Under the pieces are notes generated by a model. It was given only the letters and a program-made list of their open reading frames with translations, had not been told where the DNA came from and searched no databases. The position numbers were made by a program, and so were the translations under genes. Of a stretch of 60,238 bases of DNA, positions 1 through 46,385 are shown in pieces; within the stretch, counting starts at the first letter, position 1; each line of letters starts with the position of its first letter. The DNA comes from Conidiobolus incongruus B7586 (Eukaryota): contig JNEM01013289.1 of assembly GCA_000697335.1 (NCBI GenBank), forward strand, positions 1-60,238. The letters run 5' to 3'.

Positions 1-2100
1 TATATATAAGAATTTAAAAAATTAATCTCTTAATAATTATATTTAAGATAAACAAAAGCTAATTTTTTTATTGGTATTATTATTAAGAGTTTGGTTTTCA
101 TATTTAATTTCTAATTAGATTAAAAAAATACCAAATATAATAATATTAAGTTATTATTTATATTAAGTTTATAAGAAAAAGAAGTTATTATTAGCTAGTA
201 TTAATTAAGTTAACTTTATATATGAATTTTAGTAAAGTTTATTAATAATGAATTTATTTGATTAAATTATCTCAAATTTTATATAGAATGTTTATATTAA
301 GTGAGAGATAATAATATTAACATTATATATAATATTAAGTGGTTTAAGAATTCAATGAATAAATGTATTAAACCAAAGTATCAAGACTTAATAAAGTTTG
401 AATAGGATAAAATTGAATTAAATAAAATGAATTTCAATCAAATTACATATCAAATATGTATCAATTGACATTGAAATTTATAAAATATATTCAAGTATCT
501 TTGATTCAAGTTATTGTTTAACTAGGCATGATTAATTATTGATAGGAGTTCTCAAAACCAGTGAAAATTCCAGGAACAGTATAATTCGAAAAATAAGGCC
601 ATTTTATTTTAAAAAATGATTAATTATATCAAATGAAATTCCGATTAATTATTATTTTATTAAATTTGAGTTTTGTTAAAAAAAATCAACCAATTAAAAT
701 TATTAAATAATAAAATAATAAATATTAAATTTAACTCAATTTGAATTTAAAAAAAGCAATTAATATCCAAAATAAAGTATTAAATAACAGTCAATCATTA
801 AAATGTAATATAATATTTAAGATTAAAATTTAACACAATTTAATAAACAAATAAATCAAACAAGTTTAAGTTAAAATTTTTTACTCTATTTAAATTTTAT
901 CAGAGTTTATTGATTAAAAACTTATGCATCCACTGACAAATAACTGATAAACATTGAATAATAATAAAAATATCAAGGTTTTGGATTTAATTTTCGGATA
1001 GTTTAGGCTGACTGATTTAATTATAATTCAATTGATGATATAATGGTAGTTTATAGAATATTATATATCAATAATTCATATACTTTACTCTAAAATATAA
1101 AGGAAAATAATTATAAAGTCATATAAAATTTTTTAGTCTAGTTATTATCAAAAAATACTTTGGGTAAATTAAAATTTTATAGTTGACAAATATAAGGAGT
1201 GATAATTGATCAAATAGTTTAAAATTTACTAATTGACATAATTGATAAATTTTATCAATTATATTTGAATAATAAAAAAATGAGACCAATAACTAATTGT
1301 TTGAAATATTTATAAGGGTCAATTTTTTTATTAACAAATTTTTAATTTTTAATTTTTAATTCATTTAACCAAATTGATCAATAATTAAGAATATGATAAT
1401 TAAAATTTAGCTGATATAATAATATTTTATTTATATATTTAGGATAATCAAAAACACTTTAACACTGTATCAATTCAATATTTTACAATCGGTCAAATTA
1501 AACTCATTTGGTTGTTGTCTGAAATTGAATGCATCGATTTGCAATTTGGGTAAAGTTCAGTCATTAAGTTTATAGTATATCTTGATTATTAATTTGATAT
1601 TAACACTAAAGCACAAAATGTCTGATAATGCTACTAGTTTTAATGATTTAATATATTATCACAAATATAATTATTTCCGAATTAAATAATTTTAAAATTA
1701 AGTTTTCAAAAAAATTTGCATAATCTTATAATAAAAAACTATGAATATATATATATTTATAATGAAATTATTACATTAAAAGCTAATACATTTTTATTAT
1801 AGTATAATTAAAGAATAATATATCATTAAATTATAAAATATATAATTTAAATTAAGATTAAAAATTATACTTATTAAAAATTGAAATTATTATACTTTAT
1901 AAAAAATATTCAATTTATTTTGTATTATTAATTCACTTTAATTATTATATTAATATTAATATAATTTATAAAAGAAAATTTTTTTTCAATTTTATTCAGT
2001 TAATTTTTATTTTTAATTAGATAAGAGATATGAAATTATTTAACTGTTAGATATATAAAAGTTAAACATTAGAATGAAATATTAAAACCAAATAATTTTA

Positions 2101-26790: not shown

Positions 26791-27816
26791 TGAAATTTTT
26801 TAGTGAAATTGAACTAGTTAAAAATATAAAGTTTTTCAAGAGTTATAGTATTTGAAAATAATTTAGAGAAGTTTAAGAAATTAAAAATACAAACAGATAA
26901 ATATAAAAATAAAAGTAAACTAAAAGGGTCAAATTATGTAAACTAACTTAAAAACTCAAAGATTAGACCGAAAAATAAGTTTTAAATGAAAGAACAAGTA
27001 AAGACCAGATCAAGTAGTCATATATGTTTTTGAAAACTGAATTTATAATCAAAAAATTTAAGCGCTATCACCTCTATTTATATCCGATTGAGCCACAGTA
27101 CCAAATTTAGGAACTTACATCCTTAAATTCAACTATAAATTTTCTTAGCCAATAGATTTTTGTTAGAGTGATCTAATTATTAACGTTTTAATTGATTAGC
27201 AAGAATTATGTATAACCATCCAATCAAATGTCAATTTTATTAAACACGAAAGATGATTTGAAATGCTATAAAATTTTGGTGATGATAATAAACACATTGA
27301 TCAAATAATTTTTATCAGCGTTTTTAGTTTAATATGATATATAAATTCATATTATCATCATTAATTTTAAGTCAAAGTTATTATAATATTTTCATAATTT
27401 ATTTTTTATCAAATAATAGATTAATATTATATAATATGCAATCGAAACAACTGAAACCCTTTTCAATATGAAAATAACCTTGGATTTTAAATCCAATAAT
27501 TATCTTTTAATTAAATGCAATATTTTAAATATATAAACGTAAAGTATATCTTGTTAAAAATGATATTAATTAATTCTGTTCTAAACTTAACAATAATCAT
27601 CACAGAAATTATTTCAAAGGATGTATTATCATGATAAAACATCTTCAAGAGTAGTTTAACATCGAAACATACATTGAAATTGATTATTTGTTCTACATTT
27701 ATTAAATATTTTACTAATTTTAAAATTCATTAATTGTTTAATTAATAATATTAGAAAAGATAATTAGTAAAATTTTGAAAAAATTATTAGAAGAATAAAT
27801 CAGGTTTAGTAATTAC

Positions 27817-28215
27817 TTATAATTAAACTGTTCCAAAGTTGTTCAATTTTGATCACTGTTATCCAAGTCTTGTATGAAGTCCAGAGACCCCAAGGAGGTA
27901 AACCTCAACGCTAATCCTGGAAGATTGGCCTGATTGTTTGTTAGATAGCAAGGGGATATTTTTAATTATATTGATCTTTTAATATATCTTTATAATATTT
28001 ATGATATTTGAAAACTTTGGTTAATCCAAGTTACATATATAAATATCAAGCATTTTCACATATTTTGCTTATAAAATACTTGTCATTAACTATTACTTTA
28101 CATCAAAAGTATTCTTTTATAAGGTAAGATTTGCTCATATTTGTAATAAAAATATTCTAATATTATTTTGGCCTTTTTACTTTCAATTCATCTATGTTTT
28201 CTTTTTATTGATATT
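27817..28215 (-). mobile_element. Truncated, degenerate TnpB/Fanzor2 element 3' end (copy A)
   Basis: Reads IKRKHR*IESKKAKIILEYFYYKYEQIL..KEYF*CKVIVNDKYFISKICEN..LGLTKVFKY..KNI..CYLT, a transition-mutated Fanzor2 C-terminus. 75/98 identity with 37203-37300. Confidence 0.8.
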
Positions 28216-29599
28216 TTATCTTATTATATTTTTTAAATTTAAAAAAAAAATTATTAATAAATTTCATTCTTTTTCTCATTTAAATCATCTTAACAAATAT
28301 ATATATATATTATATTTTGATAATTCATATATTAACTCTTGTTAAAAAATCATACAAATGTATATATTTATTTAAATCATAATAATTGATGATTATTTAT
28401 ATTATATAAATTAAATAATGGCAAAATTTTGAAAAATTAAATATAATTTTTCAAATATAAAGTTAAAAACAGATAAAAATTATAGATATAATACTCCTTT
28501 TTATTAACAATAGCCTTGGCTATATTTTTGATTAAATTTCCAATATTTTTAAATTAAAATTTTCTATTAAAGATTAATATTTAATATTTTGTAATTTAAT
28601 TATATCTGTTTATAAAAGTTTTTTTTCTTAAAAGCGAAATCTTTAATTACCCAAAATTATTATAATTATATAAATTATAATCTGGTGAATATATTAGATA
28701 TGATAGTTTTATGCATTTTTTAAAGAAAATTATTGGTAAATTGAATTTTATATATTTTTCAAATATTAAAAAAAATAATTAATATCTTTAATTTATAATT
28801 AAAATATGATTTAGAAACAATCTTATTTAATAAATAAAATATTCATTTTTAATTAATTAATTTTTGATAGTTAAATAAAAAAGTTATATATTATTATAAT
28901 ATATAATATTAATTATTAGTAACTTATAAATATAATGTTTTTTATAAAATAGTTATTTTGACATAACTTAAAATTTTGGTTTAATTTCAAAAACTATAAA
29001 AAAGAACAAAGTTTACTAATTCTAGATATTTAATATTAAATTTTTATTTTTGAATATATTTTTAAAGGTTTTATTTAATTATAATTTTTTGATTTTTTTA
29101 AGTTTTAAATTATTTATTATTTATTATTTATTGTTTTTTTAAAACCCAAATCTAGTAAAAAATATATTATATTCTTTTTTAATATCTTTTTATACCTTTA
29201 TTTTTTATTTAAATTCATTTATAATTTACTCTTTATTTTATCTTATTTATATTATCTAAAATCTTACCTTAATAAATAATAAGTTTTATAACTTGAAATA
29301 AATTGCTACCCTAGTTTTTAGCATTAGGATAGTATAAAATAGTAATTTTGAATAAAACATTTTTTTTATAAAATTACTTATAGAATTTAATTAACTTTAA
29401 TAAGTTTATGTCTGTATTAATATATTACCAAATTAATAAACCCTTGAATATCAATTTCCAGTTTAATTATGATAAATTCAGAAATAAATATAAATAAAAA
29501 ATAATAATTTTATTAATTTTTTAAAATATTTTTTTCATAATTAAAGAATTATTTAAAAAGTTTAGCATTTTTTTCATAATTGATAATTATATATCCTTT

Positions 29600-30350
29600 A
29601 TACATTATTTAGTTTAAAATTCAGTCCTTAAAATATTTATTTTAATTTAGTAATAAATTGATATGAAAATTAATAACTTATAAATACCAAAGTCCAAATA
29701 TATATCAATGTATATTTTTAAATATCTACTATTATTAAAAATAATAAATAATGCTATTACTCTCTTATATTATTAATTTGATTATATTTAATTTTTATTT
29801 CTCTTTGATTATAATATTGGTTGCTCCCAAAATATTAGGATTTGTATTAGGACAGGAATCAATATTAAATTGATTTTTATTTGCCACAATCATGGGTTTC
29901 AATCATTAATTATTTTGAAAAAAATTACTTTTTATTATCTGTAGCCCAAGTGAATAATGATTTGTTTAACCGCAATATATTTACGTTTTAAATTCAGGAT
30001 ATATAAAAATAAAATATTATTCACTAATTAATTAAACCATGTCTTATATACCTCATTTAGCTTAATTTTTTATTACTATATTTCGTTATTCGAAGAGTTT
30101 TTTATCAAACATTTTTGAGGATTATTTAATTTATTGTTATTTAATTGAAAATACAAATTATACATTATCACAATAATTTCTTTTTTATTATTTTAAGAAA
30201 TTAATAAATTCAATTATAAACTTTGAAAAATAATGTTTAAAGTTAGAATTCCTCTTTTAGTTATCTTCATTCTATTTTATAAATACTTTTAATTTTTGAT
30301 AATTTTTAAATATTCATATTAAATCTAGCAAATATTGTCCTAATAAAGGA
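29600..30350 (-). mobile_element. Probable extremely degenerate LTR-retrotransposon (Ty3/gypsy-like) RT/RNase H remnant
   Basis: Weak motifs in RT-RNase H order across frameshifts: IFARFNM, GILTLNIIFQS, NYCDNV (cf. YxDD), YIRH (cf. YLGH), LFTW, NTNPNILGA (cf. DASxxxLGA). Each match needs G>A/C>T back-correction. Confidence 0.35.
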
Positions 30351-31495
30351 AATAATATTATCAATTATTTTAGTAAAATTTTATATTTTATAATTTATTT
30401 TTTTAAACCAAATAAATAGAATATATAACCTATTTTTTTAATTCAAATTAAATTATAAATTATTTAAAGAATAATTTTATAATTGATTTTTATGAAGTTT
30501 TTTATAAAAAAAATTATAACATATTTTTAAAAATATCCTTCAATATCTTATTTTATATATTCTGATAAGTGTTTAATTGCAATTGGGTTTTATCTTTATA
30601 ATATTTTATATTTATTATATAAAATAATAAGATTTCTTAAATTATATTAAATATACTAATTAAAAATAGTTTTATTTAAAAAAGTAATATAAAGTTTATT
30701 ATTAATTGATTTTCTTTTAAAAACTAAATAAGAATAGCAAATACTATTATAATTTAATAATATCAATAATATTTACTTATCAATATAGTATTTATTTAAA
30801 ATAATTTATAAAAAGGGTTAATTTAATTTAATTTAATATTTTGATTTATGTTTTAATAAAAGATTATATAAAAAGATATAAAATTCATTAATTGTAATAA
30901 TTTATTATTAAAACTTTAGTTTTTAACTATACCTTAATAAATTTTATTTAACAATAATTACTCTAGCTTTTTTTAAGCTTTAGTTAAATTATAAGGTATT
31001 TATTTTATATTTTTATTAATTAATTTTAATCTAAAATTTAATATACATAAAATACTTATATAATTAATATTAAAATACCTTAATAATTTTTTAATTAAAA
31101 TAAAAAAGTATTTTTTAATATACTTTTTTACTTTATTAATAATTAAAAGAATAATAGTTAAAATTAATTTTTTAAATTTTAACAGGTTTTAAATAATTTC
31201 TTTCTTAATATTAAAGAAATTTACCCAACAATAAATTATTAATTTTGATAATATTTTATTACTAAGAGTTACTTATAAATTTAAATAATTTTAAAGGGTT
31301 TATGGTTTAGTTTTATTAATACTAAAATAAAAATCTTTTGATGAACACTATTTAGTTTAAACATAATCAAATTAAATAACTAATTTTAAAAAATTTCTAA
31401 TTTCTTCAATTCTACAATAATATTAATAAGAATTGTAAATGATTGAAATTAATAAATAATATAATATTGTGGTTATTAAAACATATTTGAATAAT

Positions 31496-31569
31496 TGATC
31501 TTACTCAGATTCAAACTGAAGACTGTTTGTGTGTTAGACAGATGTGATAACCAACTACACCATGAGATC
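31496..31569 (-). pseudogene. tRNA-Val(AAC) pseudogene
   Basis: GATCTCATGGTGTAGTTGGTTATCACATCTGTCTAACACACAAACAGTCTTCAGTTTGAATCTGAGTAAGATCA. D arm/A box and AAC anticodon loop are intact, but the T loop reads TTTGAAT instead of TTCGA and the acceptor and anticodon stems contain mismatches. Confidence 0.85.
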
Positions 31570-35161: not shown

Positions 35162-37156
35162 ATTTAATAGTATTTGTGTAAAAAAATATATTTATAAGAA
35201 GATCGATTATGTAAAATGTATATAAAACAATTGAAAAAAATAAATGTGGCTGAAGCACAACTGAATGAATGTGTAATAGTAGTAAAAGTAGTCAGAGTAT
35301 AAAAACAGTCAAGATATAACCAATAAATCAAATAAATATATAGTTGGTATCGTTTAATACAAGAGTGAAAGAGATTATTGAATATAAATATTTAACAAGG
35401 AATAGGTGTAATTTAAAATTGATTAATTGGATGATAATAATAATTGGGTTGAATGGATAATAAGTTGAGTTGATTGAATAAATTGTTTGAAACTATTTAC
35501 AACGTTATCATAAAATCATATAATTTCCATTGATTACCATCAATCGATACTATATTGGTATTTATAGAGGATTCTAAGGGATCAGGTCATATTTAAAGTT
35601 TTATACATATTCATATAATGATAAATAATTCTATGTATTAATTCTGCTCATATATTAAGGGGAGGATTGTAATTCAAACAGAGAGTAAAAGGGAGAATTA
35701 TATCATTAATTGGAAAAATTTATTGGATCATAAATGACTACAAAGGGTAAATATTGTATAATAATTACCTAGTAAGATACCTCATACATTATATTTTCTA
35801 TTATAGTTATTTATAATCTCTACTATGAAAATTATTTGTATTGAATATATTCAAATTTGAAATCAACGAAACAAAATATGTGGATCAATGTTAAATTTAG
35901 ATTCTGAAGTAATATAAGGTTTGTTATAAATAAGGTATAGTGGCAACATATCACTATTATTCATTGTATATTATTATCATTATAAAAATAATCATATTTT
36001 TTCAATATAGATGTCAGTTGAAATTTTCTAAAAATGCAATAAGATCAAGTTGATCAATGCTTCTGAATTGATTGGTTCACAAATTGATAAGAATGCATAG
36101 ATTAGTAACCATTTGTCAATTGATTAGTCAGAATGGTTAGAGAATATATAATATGACCAATGCGAATGAAAGGAGTAGTGACATGAGTAATTTTAATTAA
36201 AAATTGAGTGATAAAATAGAGCTAATAATAGCAATCTATTCTTTTTTTAAATACTGGATAACTATGGCTTCCATAGGTTATTATTATAACTTTTCTTCTC
36301 ACACTTCATTAATTATTTGATCGCTGTTAATGTAAATAAATGAGGGGGTATGAGGTTGTAGGGAGTTTTATTTACAATTATTCCTTTTTTAGAGCAATTT
36401 TTAATTCAATTCACTTAATATTAAATAATTTGTATAAAATGATGATTAAATACAGTACAATTATCAAAAAGAGATATAATATAATGATATAATAAACTTT
36501 ATATAAAGGATATTAGCTCAAAAGTTTCCAATGGGACTAAGGATGGATTAATAGTAACATTCAACTCGTTGCTCAGCCTTCTATGATTTCATTATTCATC
36601 ATTTTTTTAAAACATTTAGTCACTAAAATTCCATTATTAAAATCAATTCAAACCATAATTTTTTCATTCGAAATTAAGGAATATAGCTATATTCATTTTT
36701 TTAATAAATAAATCTGGATAACCAGAAATTACATTGTAATTTGGATCTATACAAACAATTTTATGAAATCGTTACATAGTTTTTATTCATTACCTAAGAT
36801 TACTTCATTAAAAAATGAATTCAAAATTACTAGCTACGATTTGGATAAAAATTATAATATTATTACATTCAAATATTTGAATAAATAAAACTGATAAAAA
36901 CAAATTTTGAAGGTGTATTTTGTATTAACAAACATCATAATTGGATTTTAAATGAGTCATAAAGCATCATTTTGTTTATCTTTATTCAATGAATAACAAG
37001 CATATAATATACAAAAGATATAAGCCTATATTGTGAATAATACAATATTTTAAATACTTTCTTTTTGTTAAGATCTATTAAACAGTATTTTTTTTATCAT
37101 TTGTAAATTTTATATTTAATTGATATTTTTCTGTAATATTGAAGTACTGGGATTGA

Positions 37157-37290
37157 ATATAATCAAAATTGTTCAATATTAATCAAATTTAATCAACTCT
37201 TGTCCAAGTCCTGTATGGAATCCACAGACCCCAAGGGGACAAGCCCCAATACCAATCCTGGAAGATTAACTTGATTATTTGTTGACTAGC
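37157..37290 (-). ncRNA. Candidate (degenerate) omega-RNA scaffold of the Fanzor2 element; paralogue at 27817-27950
   Basis: Lies directly 3' of the RuvC-III motif, is the GC-richest and best-conserved part of both copies, and contains hairpins GGGG-CTTG-(T)CCCC and GGGGTC-TGTG-GATTCC. Confidence 0.5.
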
Positions 37291-37752
37291 AAAAGAGTAT
37301 ACTTTTAATAATATTAATGTCTTGATCCATTTTTTATGATATTAAAAATACTTGAAAGTTTTAATTGAATCCAGTTAAATATTCAAACACTCAAAACTAC
37401 TATATGTTGTGCTTATGTGAAAATTATATTATTACGATATACCAAAAGTACTCTTTTATTTTGTTATATAAAGTTTTCTTAAATTTGCAATAAGATTATC
37501 TTAACATTATATTTGTATTTTTACTTTTAATGCATTTATTTGCTTTTCTCATCATCATATAATTGTTAAATTAAGGAAATATAGTAATAAGATATTTATT
37601 CAAAAATCAATCTAATAGATTTATTATAAACCTTGTTAATATGATTTTTGGTTTTTTAATATTTTTAACTACGTTTCTCACTATATTGAGATTTAAATAA
37701 TAGATTTTTAGTATAATTTATTTTACAGCCTGTTATATTTATGGTAAAATTG

Positions 37753-37774
37753 ATATATATATATATATATATAT
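37753..37774. repeat. (AT)n microsatellite inside the Fanzor remnant
   Basis: AT dinucleotide run interrupting the decayed ORF. Confidence 0.8.
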
Positions 37775-39818
37775 TAATAGAAATTAAAAAATAGCTTGAT
37801 ATTAAAGTTTATGATTAAAGGTTAAAATTATTTTTTAATATATTTTATCTAATAATTTAACCATAAATTTTTTTTCATTATTTAATTTAATATCTAAATT
37901 TATAAAACATTTTATAAAAAACATATTATAACCGCGTTTTTCTAATAATCTCCAAGTTAATTATATTTTATTGTAGTTAAAATTAATTGGGTTAAAAACA
38001 TTATTTTATAATTTATATAGCAAATAGTGATTTTTTGAATATAGTTTTTTATTCAAATTTAACCTTTTTATATATAGTATATTTAAAATTATATTAATTC
38101 AGATGGTTATTGGTTAATTTATTTTAAATATGGTGAGGATATTCTAATACTTATTTGTTATCATCCTTAAAAAATTATATTCAAACATTTAATTTTTGAT
38201 TCTTATAATTAGATATAAGAAATTTTTTAACAGTAATTGTATATTTATTAAAAGTTAATCTTATTTTTTATATTATATGATTAAATTCTTCTTGTCAAAA
38301 ATTAAAATAAACTTGTTTTTTGATTATATTGTATTTTATATTAAGCTATTCTTATCCGCTTTATTTTTCTAGAAGTAATCTATCATACTTTGGTATAAAA
38401 TATACAAAAATATAAACAGATTATAGGTCAGGTTATTTGTTGAGATATGTTTTTAATATACAATAAATAACTATATATTTTATTTTATTTTTTTCCAAGA
38501 TTAGTTTAAAAAGCCAAGATTTATCTATAAAAATGTTGATTTGTATTGGTAATAGTAAACTTAAGGAATAGTTTGTTTATATAATTTTTTAATTAAGTTT
38601 AAAAGCTAAGAAATTTATCATTGAGTTTGATCTAACATCCCATATGATGTTATATTTAAAAAAACTACCTTTAGGTTATAAGACTTATTTATGGTTTTAT
38701 TTTGGTGTTTAAAAGAGACTATTATGAAAAATGTTTAGATTTTCAATGTTAATATTGCTTTTTACTTAATTAAAATGTTGCTCAATATCTAAAACTGATT
38801 ATTGCTTGAATTTATTTAGAGTTTGTATGATTCTAATCTTTTCCAGTTCTATCCCAACATCTAAAAATGCTTGATAAAATTCCAAATTATTTTCTTATTT
38901 TGGGGGTAGAAGTATATTTAGAATTGTTTTACTTGTCTAAGAATAGCAATAGTGTGCTTTGTGCTGCATTGCTTGTAACTAAATATTATTATGTAAAAAT
39001 ATCCAAGTATCTGGGGTGCAAGTCATAGTTTATCTATGACTTGATTGAATATCGATAGGTGTATTCAAAACAAGTAGAAATTCTGGGAATGATATTGTTA
39101 ATCTGATGATGGATATTTTTAATTTTGGAATAATTCTTTAATATCCATATTTGATTTTATATAAAGATAATATCTAGATTATGTGAATTATGATTTACAG
39201 TTTAAGTATATGATTTTTCTTGAAAATTGAAAACTATTCTACAATTATGTGAAGAGAATTACTATAGAAACAATTTAATTATGATTCAATCATAATCGAA
39301 TAATGTTCAACATTAAAAAAGATAAATTATCTATGACTAATATACTTTTAATCACTTGTTATTTGAAATTTAGTTTATAAATTAGGAAAACCCGATCCCA
39401 TAATGAAAACAAAGTATACCCAATTTACTAAATTTGACCAATTTGAGGAATAAGCTTAGAATTCAACAAAAAACATTTAGAAAAGTAACTTGAAAAGATA
39501 CAACCTTCAATAGAGAATTTAAACCACTATCATTCGAACTTTTATCACAGCTATCACATTATACTTTGAATATCTCGTTTAAGCACTCGTCAATAGAAAA
39601 ATTAAATTATCAAATTTTATAAAACAAGTATGCAAAATTTTAATTATAAATTCAGTCTCAATTTAATTTGAATTCATTTCAAATTTTGAATATAATTTTT
39701 TCAAGATGACTTTTCTAGCTTAAGAAACATATATTTCAAGTTGTATTCTATTTGAATATTAACCAATTTAAAGCATATCTAGCTACTATACTGCCAAGTT
39801 AGGTGTATTTTATACATA

Positions 39819-43650: not shown

Positions 43651-46385
43651 ATGTTGCGTCAATTTGCTAGATCAAAACAAAATATTAGATTGAATAATTT
43701 GGATAAGGTAAAATAAACTATACAAAACAAACTTGATTTTGACTTTTAACATAATATTTAGTACTATACTTATTCATCTAAATCCAATACTTGGAAGGTT
43801 CCATTACATTCTGAATGGTGTGAGTTAGTTAAAAAGGAACTCAAGGGTAAAGACCCCGAAGAAACTTTGACTTGGCATACTGCTGAGGTAATTAATTAGT
43901 CACTTGTTTATTAATGTTAATTAACGCATTATTTTATATATTCAGGGTATTAAAGTCAAGCCAGTATATACCAAAAAGGATATCGAAGGTATTGAAGAAG
44001 AAATCCCAGGCAAGTTCCCATTTACAAGAGGTCCTTACGCCAGTATGTATACATATCGTCCTTGGACAGTTCGTCAGGTATATTTTCTTACAATATTCCA
44101 ATTCATACAAACTAATAGTATTATAATAGTATGCTGGTTTCAGTACGGTAGAAGAGAGTAACAAATTTTACAGAAAAAATTTGGCTGCTGGTCAACAAGG
44201 TTTAAGTGTTGCTTTCGATTTGGCCACCCATAGAGGGTGATACATTATTAAATGATTACATAATATAATATTAACATCATTGCTATAGTTATGACTCAGA
44301 CCATCCTAGAGTAGTGGGTGATGTAGGTATGGCTGGTGTAGCTATTGACAGTGTAGAAGATACCAAAGTAAGTAGATTTTATTATTATGGCTTTATATCA
44401 AATTAACTTATTTGAATAGATTTTATTCGATGGAATTCCTCTCAATAAAATGTCAGTATCTATGACAATGAACGGAGCCGTACTTCCCATTTTAGCAATG
44501 TACATTGTCACCGGTTTAGAGCAGGTAATCATACTGCTGCAATGCAATTTATGGAAAGTAACAAAATAATTATCTATAGGGAGCTAAACTCAGTGAACTA
44601 GCAGGGACTATCCAGAACGATATTTTAAAAGAATTTATGGTGCGTAATACTTTCATTTACCCCCCTAAACCTTCTATGAGAATTATTGGTGATATCTTCT
44701 CTTATACTGCCAAGGTACCGATACAGACTAAAACTACTAATGTGTAATATCATAACACCAATTCTTTAGAATATGCCCAAATATAATTCCATTTCTATTT
44801 CTGGTTACCATTTACAAGAAGCTGGTGCTGACAATGTCCTTGAATTAGCCTTCACCATTGCTGATGGTTTAGAATATGTTAGAACTGGTAATAATTTCTA
44901 TATTATACAAATTATAAGATATTATTGACATTTATATTATTGAAATTGTATAGGTATTAAATCAGGTATGACTGTTGATGAGTTTGCTCCTCGTCTATCC
45001 TTCTTCTGGGCCATTGGTATGAATTTCTATATGGTAATGAAAGCTGATTCAAAAGAAAGCTGTTTTTTTTTATTAAATCCCATTAGGAAATTGCCAAAAT
45101 GAGAGCTGCTCGCAGATTGTGGGCTCACCTGATTAAAGAAAAGTTCCAACCTAAAAACAAGAAATCTATGCTCTTAAGAACTCACTGCCAAACCTCTGGT
45201 TGGTCCTTGACCGAACAGGATCCTTACAACAATGTTATCCGTACCACAGTTGAAGCTATGGCTGCTACCCTTGGAGGAACCCAATCTCTCCATACCAACG
45301 CTCTTGACGAAGCCATTGGTCTCCCCACTGAATTCAGTGCACGTATCGCCCGTAATACTCAATTGATTCTTCAAGAAGAAGCTATGATTCCCAAGGTTGC
45401 TGATCCATGGGGTGGTTCTTATATGATGGAGTCCCTTACCAACGAAATCTATGAAGCCGCTCTTAAACTCATCAATGAAATTGAGGAGATGGGTGGTATG
45501 GCCAAGGCCGTAGATTCTGGTATGCCCAAACTTAAGATTGAAGAGAGTGCTGCCAAGCGTCAAGCCAGAATCGACTCTGGAAAAGAAACTATTGTTGGTG
45601 TTAATAAGTACCGTTTGGAGAAGGAAGATGACTTGGAGATTCTGGCCATTGATAACACCAAGGTACGCAAATCCCAGATTGCTAGAATCGAAAAGGTCAA
45701 GGCTGAACGTGACAGTCAAAAGGCTCAAGCTTGTCTTGATGCTCTTACTAAGTGTGCTGAAACTGGAGAGGGTAATTTACTCGAGTTATCTATTGAAGCT
45801 GCTAAAGCCAGATGTACCGTTGGTGAAATTTCCTATGCTTTGGAGAAAGTATTTGGCCGTCACCAACCTCAGAATCGTGTAGTCAGCGGTGCTTATAAAT
45901 CCGAATATGGTGAACACGATGAAGTTAAATTAACTCAAGAAGTCATTAGTAAATTCACTCAAGATCACGGTCGTCCTCCTAGATTGCTTGTTGCTAAGAT
46001 GGGTCAAGATGGCCATGACCGCGGTGCCAAAGTTATTGCCTCTGGTTTCGCTGACCTTGGTTTCGACGTTGATGTTGGTCCCCTTTTCCAGACCCCTGCT
46101 GAAGTAGCCCGCCAAGCTATTGATGCTGATGTACATGTTATTGGTGTTTCCTCTCTAGCCGCCGGTCATAAGACCTTGGTTCCAGCTTTGATTGAAGAAT
46201 TGAAGAAGCTTGGTGCTGATGATAAATTAGTCATTGCTGGTGGTGTTATCCCTGCCCAAGACTATCAATTCCTATTTGATAATGGTGTTGCTGCCGTATT
46301 TGGACCAGGTACTAAGATCCCCGTAGCTGCTAGAGAAGTAGTTGAAAAGATCGACAAGTCGCTTCAACAAGCATCAACTCACTAG
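43651..46385 (+). CDS. MMUT: Methylmalonyl-CoA mutase, mitochondrial, adenosylcobalamin-dependent; multi-exon
   Basis: Presequence-like [87 protein letters not shown] and the B12-binding [13 protein letters not shown]. Confidence 0.97.

What the first reader, a model, noticed from the sequence alone, without database searches (positions are those of the whole stretch)
37157..38920. Hidden IS607-type tnpA plus Fanzor2 RNA-guided nuclease transposon in a fungal chromosome
Seen (minus strand, across stops and frameshifts): HTH KYTSTPKIRK*FGILSSIFRCWDRTGK-IRIIQTLNKFK, VSFKHQ and IIWDVRSN, then a weak RuvC-I candidate at ~37792-37827 (FNL*S*TLISSY), MRKANKCIKSK..MLR*SYCKF..KEYFW, a decayed zinc ribbon and MDQDINIIKSILFC. 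Established: IS607 TnpA has an N-terminal HTH (TLRRW..GKI..IRTPGG) followed by YxRVSS..Q and DxGSG, and TnpB/Fanzor2 ends in DRDxNAARNI. Restoring transitions converts MDQDINIIKSILFC to MDRDINAARSILLR. Inference: a dead copy of a prokaryote-derived, autonomous RNA-guided transposon family; intact relatives could provide a new compact programmable nuclease.
Basis: partly seen in the sequence, partly recalled or inferred. Interest (0 to 1): 0.88.

Follow-up and report, generated by a model that had tools for sequence, protein, structure and literature searches.

The report
Dead IS607-Fanzor2 transposon family, entomophthoralean fungus
This is a long-dead, mutation-riddled copy of a known kind of jumping gene that once carried a recombinase and a likely RNA-guided DNA cutter, with further decayed pieces scattered in the genome of an early-diverging fungus from a group where our searches found no earlier report of it.

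Summary
Confirmed. The minus strand at 37154-39094 holds a full-length but dead IS607-type element: left end, tnpA (serine recombinase), Fanzor2, right-end RNA region. A tool-blind phmmer of one reading frame returned 5 hits, all Fanzor2-like C-termini. A frameshift-aware profile puts TnpA here far above all unrelated tiles (36.5 versus 3.0) and aligns Fanzor2 collinearly. The copy has about 24 stops and 10 frameshifts; the RuvC-II Glu and all four zinc cysteines are gone. A second copy (27814-28249) and a lone left end (483-581) lie in the window; at least 10-12 other contigs of the same sample carry either end. The host is entomophthoralean by its nearest named RPS2. The same clade is already tabulated for Glomeromycota (Yoon 2023, Saito 2023 supplements), and this scan reported the same kind in other fungal DNA (e1-7415716). 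New: the host order, a dispersed family, and unexplained sparing of the RNA-bearing end from C-to-T decay. No intact copy was found.

The parts
38977..39094 (-). Left end of the element (copy A), with a perfect 10-bp inverted repeat at 39019-39043 and a decayed CCGTT-like terminal motif at 39088-39094
   Evidence: Depth peak and 12-13 other contigs with variant letters here; one 3510-nt contig holds this end and the right end; 76% match to window 483-576; hairpin z -3.6; CCGTT found upstream of tnpA in 6 of 17 relatives, 5 of them 164-184 nt upstream. Exact terminal base inferred.
38769..38925 (-). tnpA pseudogene, MerR-like HTH domain (1 frameshift, 2 stops)
   Evidence: tblastn E 2.3e-5; 36 bits, 0 of 200 shuffles; 37.0 glocal, 0 of 200
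38451..38765 (-). tnpA pseudogene, serine-resolvase catalytic domain; YARVSS-like motif at 38702-38728 (Ser codon kept, Arg lost), DxGSG-like motif at 38628-38645
   Evidence: glocal 7.9 vs null -12.6+-4.1, 0 of 200 (boundaries chosen after alignment); local tests marginal (0 of 200 at 14.6 vs max 14.5; 22 of 200 for the second half)
38408..38624 (-). Possible remains of the Fanzor2 N-terminal extension overprinted on tnpA in another frame
   Evidence: In relatives the LWLPT motif sits 11 nt before TnpA's KDRL motif in 16 of 30 loci; window match weak (glocal 1 of 200, local 28 of 200)
37211..38333 (-). Fanzor2 (TnpB-like) pseudogene: HTH/REC, WED, RuvC, zinc ribbon; about 19 stops and 5 frameshifts
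   Evidence: (N part 20 bits 0 of 100; C part 74 bits 0 of 100)
37796..37823 (-). Likely site of RuvC-I (DPG motif), destroyed
   Evidence: Aligned here in 11 of 12 parameter sets; not significant alone
37319..37425 (-). RuvC-II Glu deleted at about 37422, four zinc-ribbon Cys changed to Y/F/Y/Y, RuvC-III Asp codon kept at 37319-37321
   Evidence: 12 of 12 parameter sets for E and D
37154..37275 (-). Right end: three-stem omega/reRNA-like region overlapping the ORF tail, then roughly 10-nt periodic repeats and the terminus (relatives end in GTA(A)GCG)
   Evidence: Alignment with copy B and L143; L143 folds into the stems at z -4.0, A and B not significant (z -1.2, +0.9); 9-10 other contigs with variant letters; termini
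37751..37775 (.). (TA)n microsatellite expanded inside the dead Fanzor2 gene
27814..28249 (-). Copy B: decayed Fanzor2 C-terminus plus right end
   Evidence: 70% over 399 nt to copy A, E 5e-41; tblastn E 7e-11; 50.5 bits, 0 of 20 shuffles
29963..30744 (-). Possible upstream continuation of copy B, separated by about 1.7 kb of other AT-rich DNA (weak)
   Evidence: -51.5 vs null -78.5+-3.7, 0 of 40, but only z 3.6 vs 3.4 for an unrelated tile in the tile control; no tnpA found beyond it (24 of 60)
483..581 (-). Piece C: lone left end
   Evidence: 76% over 95 nt to A's left end, E 1e-15; no tnpA detected downstream (97 of 100)

Best explanation
The stretch is a dead, full-length copy of an IS607-type DNA transposon (tnpA serine recombinase, Fanzor2 gene, right-end RNA region) that likely multiplied in this fungal genome long ago and has since decayed by C-to-T/G-to-A change. 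Shown: homology, order, both ends, further copies, loss of frame and of catalytic residues. Inferred from the family: when intact, TnpA would bind the repeats at both ends, excise the element as a double-stranded circle and insert it by crossover at a matching dinucleotide (here likely CG: relatives end in ...GCG and begin CCG...), while Fanzor2 loaded with the right-end RNA would cut empty target sites next to a CCG-like motif and so favour retention and spread. Today neither protein can be made from copy A or B.
For: Fanzor2; TnpA; collinear over 1.75 kb; YARVS-to-RD distance about 1400 nt vs 1429-1789 in 16 relatives; TnpA-motif ORFs in 30 of 83 relative loci examined, many of them short contigs; 3 of 3 tested above the IS607 cut-off; best solved relatives: mimivirus Fanzor2 9b0l E 1.7e-30; IS607-family TnpA 6dgc, 6dgb; locus is single-copy and identical in the host's contigs, ends recur in 9-13 other contigs with unlike flanks, one contig has both ends; A and B stay aligned with L143 to the terminus; flanks differ beyond it; A-B differences 22/27/31 by codon position, p 0.47, as for neutral decay; 95 of 137 ancestral G/C at amino-acid-fixed sites changed, 74 by C>T or G>A; 22 of 153 A/T changed. 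Mechanism of IS607 and reRNA: PMC10711439 passages.
Against: No generic profile detects any fragment. RuvC-I and the second half of the resolvase domain are not significant in local tests. My aligner assumes AT-biased decay, so the spectrum leans that way, and segment boundaries were chosen after seeing the alignment. All extra copies come from one sample; the tool warns that depth is no copy number. No empty insertion site was available, so transposition (rather than segmental duplication) rests on similarity stopping at the element ends. The CG crossover and CCG motif rest on 6 of 17 left ends and decayed termini.
Confidence: 0.92

Rival explanations
1. The Fanzor2 fossil is real but the upstream part is not tnpA (a TnpA-less, non-autonomous Fanzor2 element, or chance motifs in AT-rich DNA).
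For: No Pfam or NCBIfam hit for the tnpA fragments; catalytic motifs individually marginal (16 of 300, 174 of 300).
Against: HTH 36-37 bits with 0 of 200 shuffles; top tile of 454; right strand, order and spacing; catalytic domain 0 of 200 as a whole.
Confidence: 0.03
2. The coding part is dead but the ends are or were kept by selection: decayed copies acted as 'ghost' loci, mobilised in trans and supplying guide RNAs to an intact or domesticated Fanzor2 elsewhere in the genome.
For: Against L143, A and B lost 68 of 95 and 65 of 95 G/C in the ORF but 24 of 58 and 22 of 58 in the right end (p 3e-4 each), and ORF losses at fixed sites are independent between A and B (21/9/6/4, p 0.7); only the ends recur at >=80% in other contigs; stems 2 and 3 still pair in both copies; ghost loci with conserved ends and RNA are described for SpuFz1 (PMC10432273 passages).
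Against: Neither copy folds better than shuffles (z -1.2, +0.9); stem 1 is broken on a different arm in each copy; 15 of 16 A-B differences in the tail are transitions, i.e. it also decays; no intact Fanzor2 was seen; the interior of A is single-copy, so no recent trans-mobilisation of this lineage; synonymous divergence from L143 inflates the ORF figure (though the fixed-site figure, 69%, is free of it).
Confidence: 0.1
3. The decay was caused by a targeted, RIP-like or methylation-driven C-to-T process that hits repeat interiors and spares edges, rather than by the genome's general AT bias.
For: 78% of G/C changes are C>T/G>A on both strands; GC falls from 0.33 at the left end to 0.09-0.2 inside; RIP-like indices were reported in Zoophthora radicans with caveats (PMC10515909 passages).
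Against: No dinucleotide preference (CA 16 of 29, CC 10 of 21); RIP indices of the element resemble other intergenic DNA; all intergenic DNA of the window is 13-25% GC; the terminal 50 nt lost more G/C than the stems.
Confidence: 0.15
4. Bacterial contamination or an assembly chimera.
For: Gene set is of prokaryotic type.
Against: Host contigs cover the locus with 0 differences at the same depth as the flank and run on into it; neighbours are eukaryotic genes; decay matches host composition; nearest relatives are eukaryote-type Fanzor2, prokaryotic ones only 35-39% over full length.
Confidence: 0.01

Closest known systems
Eukaryotic IS607-type elements with Fanzor2 (Bao and Jurka 2013, PMC3627910; Gilbert and Cordaux 2013, PMC3673617; passages read)
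   Same: tnpA (MerR HTH + resolvase) overlapping a TnpB-like ORF with zinc ribbon; no TIRs or TSDs seen; cyanobacterial nearest prokaryotic relatives
   Different: Their fungal hosts are yeasts and Ustilago; this host is entomophthoralean. Gilbert and Cordaux found no evidence of transposition within eukaryote genomes; here the ends recur at many loci.
Glomeromycota Fanzor2 in Yoon et al. 2023 Table S2 (PMC10711439) and Saito et al. 2023 tree table (PMC10432273): e.g. Racocetra persica CAG8798034.1, Scutellospora calospora CAG8436474.1 (TnpA and Fanzor2 in one gene model), Rhizophagus FZ2 rows
   Same: Same sequence clade (CAG8798034.1 is P0015 here; CAG8449213.1 is the best phmmer hit), same KTARxML.WSHY...EYPWC motifs, TnpA linked
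   Different: Host phylum (Zoopagomycota vs Mucoromycota); copies here are far more decayed and invisible to protein-based surveys; 0 rows for Conidiobolus, Neoconidiobolus or Entomophthora in either supplement.
ApmFz2 (mimivirus TnpB-like protein L79, PDB 9b0l) and NlovFz2
   Same: Best solved-structure match of the relatives' profile (E 1.7e-30); IS607 context; DPG-type RuvC-I in relatives; NlovFz2 uses a 5'-CCG TAM, like the motif inferred here
   Different: Those are intact and active; this copy has lost frame, RuvC-II Glu and the zinc ligands.

Membership tests
IS607-family transposon | TnpA with N-terminal MerR-like HTH | tested here: met
   (as a pseudogene)
IS607-family transposon | Serine-resolvase catalytic domain after the HTH (YxRVSS, DxGSG) | tested here: met
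   Domain as a whole 0 of 200 shuffles; single motifs marginal; relatives pass NF033518
IS607-family transposon | tnpA upstream of and overlapping tnpB on one strand | tested here: met
   Order and spacing; overlap direct in relatives (16 of 30), weak in the window
IS607-family transposon | No TIR/TSD; crossover at a matching dinucleotide | tested here: inconclusive
   No long inverted repeat joining the two ends among the 25 listed; relatives' ends suggest CG; no empty site available
IS607-family transposon | Mobility (dispersed copies) | tested here: met
   Copies A, B, C in the window with unlike flanks; 9-13 further contigs per end; historical only, one sample
Fanzor2 | TnpB-like RuvC + C4 zinc ribbon + RD motif in a eukaryotic genome | tested here: met
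   Cys and Glu lost in the copy itself
Fanzor2 | DPG at RuvC-I and repositioned Glu (Ealt) before the zinc ribbon | tested here: inconclusive
   Present in the closest relatives; both destroyed in copy A
Fanzor2 | Groups with Fanzor2/pro-Fanzor rather than Fanzor1 | tested here: inconclusive
   All similarity hits are Fanzor2-type and best PDB match is ApmFz2; the tree has long branches and held no Fanzor1 or cyanobacterial rows
Fanzor2 | Structured right-end RNA | tested here: inconclusive
   Three stems conserved in position with L143 (z -4.0) and some covariation across 6 rows; A and B alone not significant; no Rfam match
Fanzor2 | RNA-guided, TAM-dependent DNA cleavage | not testable with these tools
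   Needs biochemistry on an intact relative; impossible for this copy
Repeat-induced point mutation (RIP) | Context-specific C-to-T excess confined to repeats | tested here: inconclusive
   C>T/G>A excess present, no CpA preference, indices like other intergenic DNA

The most novel reading that the evidence does not exclude
An IS607-Fanzor2 family transposed to dozens of sites inside an entomophthoralean nucleus, and its dead copies kept their ends and guide-RNA scaffolds under selection as a dispersed 'ghost' guide library serving an intact or domesticated Fanzor2 still hidden in the genome; alternatively the copies record a RIP-like C-to-T defence outside Dikarya.
Probability: 0.12. Interest if true: 0.65.

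Novelty: new member of a known kind. Interest (0 to 1): 0.3.

Why it matters
It extends IS607-Fanzor2 elements to Entomophthorales (no such rows in two published Fanzor tables and 0 papers in two term searches) and shows that protein-based surveys miss such fossils. The many dispersed ends speak for real transposition of a bacterial-type serine-recombinase element in a fungal nucleus, which the 2013 survey could not show. The fossil itself offers no tool; the intact relatives found here (about 430 aa core, with cognate TnpA and ends, predicted CCG-like TAM) are ordinary candidates among thousands already known. The uneven decay (ends spared) is the one open point and is testable with a full assembly.

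Tried and rejected
Pfam on six frames and 19 fragments, NCBIfam on 5 fragments, PDB sequence search with the window frame: nothing relevant. Viral-contig scan and plasmid tblastn with the decayed fragment: nothing. No whole genome is held, so copy number and intact copies could not be searched directly. No RNA holder listed. Laying host contigs on relative L143 at 80% found 3 short right-end pieces and nothing over the ORF; uninformative about intact copies because the family may be under 80% alike. Runs X5 and X7 gave 0 and 1 pieces. First aligner version with a fixed background gave a false TnpA score in GC-richer DNA and was replaced by a local background. First spectrum attempt used too strict a threshold, redone. 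Tree (59 rows, P0001 and all cyanobacterial loci dropped by my motif filter): A and B pair (98/95) next to P0005 but both are long branches of odd composition, so no donor can be named. tnpA and left end of copy B: not found. tnpA after piece C: not found. Introns: copy A is shorter than all 16 measured relatives between YARVS and RD, leaving no room for one. Jiang 2023 supplements held no species table (control), so their zero says nothing. One Saito supplementary PDF could not be read; bioRxiv supplements are closed; subscription papers (e.g. the ApmFz2 structure paper) were not searched and may bear on novelty.

Full report
Setting. The window is eukaryotic: intron-broken genes separated by DNA of 13-25% GC. 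The RPS2 protein's nearest named match is Neoconidiobolus thromboides (89%), then Basidiobolus (84%), so the host is an entomophthoralean fungus (inference from one gene). No whole genome is held. The finding lies between a gene ending near 36.6 kb and an RRM-containing gene starting near 40.2 kb. Contigs of the host's runs cover it with 0 differences at about 31-33 depth and run into the flank (X1 and X2 are one sample and may be the source of the window).

Observation. The quoted peptides are present. Generic libraries miss them. A phmmer search of the single frame 37289-37738 against 1.84 billion proteins gave 5 hits (E 1e-7 to 5e-4), all Fanzor2-type C-termini, 4 of 5 with PF07282; the best is a Scutellospora calospora protein. 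The tail of P0005 matches the window beyond the RD motif, into the right-end region. Searching with P0005 gave 379 longer relatives, 120 listed; tblastn of 130 proteins hits only this locus (best E 2e-16) and a second one at 27.8-28.2 kb (E 7e-11) at E<1e-3.

TnpA. Metagenome loci of the relatives carry an upstream ORF with the IS607 motifs in 30 of 83 loci examined (many contigs are too short), and 3 of 3 tested pass NF033518. With 120 such proteins, 31 of 34 tblastn HSPs at E<=0.2 fall on 38751-38949 (best 2.3e-5). I wrote a frameshift-aware codon aligner with an AT-drift model and local background. HTH: 36 bits, 0 of 200 block shuffles. Whole TnpA: 36.5 at this tile, 3.0 at the best unrelated tile of 454. 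The catalytic domain passes as a whole (0 of 200, boundaries chosen post hoc) but its motifs are marginal singly.

Fanzor2. Collinear from 38333 to 37211: N part 20 bits (0 of 100), C part 74 bits (0 of 100), RuvC-I region not significant (63 of 100); columns 27-316 give z about 13 against 3.6 for the next of 162 tiles. The alignment needs 5 stops and 5 frameshifts in tnpA and 19 and 5 in Fanzor2; the RuvC-II Glu is deleted and all four zinc Cys are changed. The relatives' profile matches mimivirus Fanzor2 (9b0l) best among solved structures, and TnpA matches IS607-family catalytic domains. Of 32 prokaryotic loci, 30 are cyanobacterial by title, 35-39% identical over near full length; one 2.3-kb MAG contig at 53% shares its right end with metagenome loci and is probably misbinned (inference).

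Ends and copies. Copy B (27814-28249) is 70% identical to A over 399 nt, and a lone left end lies at 483-581. Laying host contigs at 80% shows single-copy cover over the genes and peaks at 37200-37340 and 38980-39090, with up to 10 and 12 other contigs (X1; 9 and 13 in X2) carrying variant letters; one contig holds both ends. A, B and relative L143 align to a common terminus; relatives end in GTA(A)GCG or a near variant (13 distinct ends listed). CCGTT lies upstream of tnpA in 6 of 17 relatives, and A and C have transition-decayed versions at the matching distance. This suggests crossover at CG and a CCG-like TAM (inference; NlovFz2 has 5'-CCG, PMC10432273). The right end holds three stems; L143 folds at z -4.0, A and B do not beat shuffles, six rows show some covariation, Rfam has no match.

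Decay. At amino-acid-fixed sites 95 of 137 ancestral G/C changed (74 by C>T or G>A) against 22 of 153 A/T, with no CpA preference (the aligner's prior leans this way). A and B differ evenly over codon positions and lost fixed G/C independently, so decay followed insertion. Unexplained: both copies lost about 70% of G/C in the ORF but about 40% in the right end (p 3e-4 each), and the left end keeps a perfect 10-bp hairpin. Ghost-like constraint, an edge-sparing C-to-T process, palindrome self-correction (recalled mechanism, untested) and outgroup bias all remain open.

Mechanism. Shown: anatomy, copies, death. Inferred from PMC10711439 (abstract, introduction, part of methods and passages read): TnpA moves a double-stranded circle by dinucleotide crossover, and the nuclease uses the right-end RNA plus flank as guide. 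The homing role is from the abstract opening of PMC10690162 (listing only) and concerns bacterial TnpB.

What is known. Fanzor2 in IS607-type elements, including fungi: PMC3627910 and PMC3673617 (passages), PMC10530073 (passages), PMC10432273 ('Fz2 is found broadly in fungi'). Supplement searches show this clade in Glomeromycota, including P0015's accession and a TnpA-Fanzor2 gene model, and no Conidiobolus, Neoconidiobolus, Entomophthora, Basidiobolus or Massospora rows. Paper searches Fanzor+Entomophthor and Fanzor+Conidiobolus gave 0; an Entomophthorales genome paper has no IS607 or TnpB mention (PMC10515909, passages). This scan noted the same kind in other fungal DNA (unchecked AI notes); nothing for this genome.

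Verdict. A real, well-spotted fossil: a new member of a known kind, in a host order not found in the tables and papers searched. Interest 0.3.

Noticed in passing
window 27814-28249 (-) and 483-581 (-): Second decayed copy (Fanzor2 C-terminus plus right end) and a lone left end of the same family within 60 kb.
   Followed up: yes
window 29963-31569 (-): Very AT-rich stretch (10-14% GC) that may be the upstream part of copy B, ending near a tRNA-Val(AAC) gene at 31496-31569.
   Followed up: partly
window 39019-39043: Perfect 10-bp inverted repeat with a 5-nt loop in the left end, intact in A though decayed in piece C.
   Followed up: partly
window 45087-46385 (+): B12-dependent methylmalonyl-CoA mutase (PF01642 + PF02310), a cobalamin enzyme in an early-diverging fungus.
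   Followed up: no
L082, L083, L085, L089, L100, L108 and others: The Fanzor2 N-terminal extension is overprinted on the TnpA catalytic domain at a fixed -11 nt offset in 16 of 30 loci; 26 of 37 long Fanzor2 proteins carry the motif.
   Followed up: partly
L162 (MAG contig titled Rummeliibacillus, 2340 nt): Eukaryote-type Fanzor2 whose right end is nearly identical to metagenome loci L091, L094, L095, L111; probably a misbinned contig.
   Followed up: no
L103, L104, L131, L135, L160 right ends: Short tandem direct repeats of about 10 nt just inside the terminus, likely TnpA binding sites.
   Followed up: no
L113-L118: Near-identical GC-rich elements whose longest tnpA-motif ORF lacks the HTH and YARVSS part in that frame (possible intron or frameshift).
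   Followed up: no
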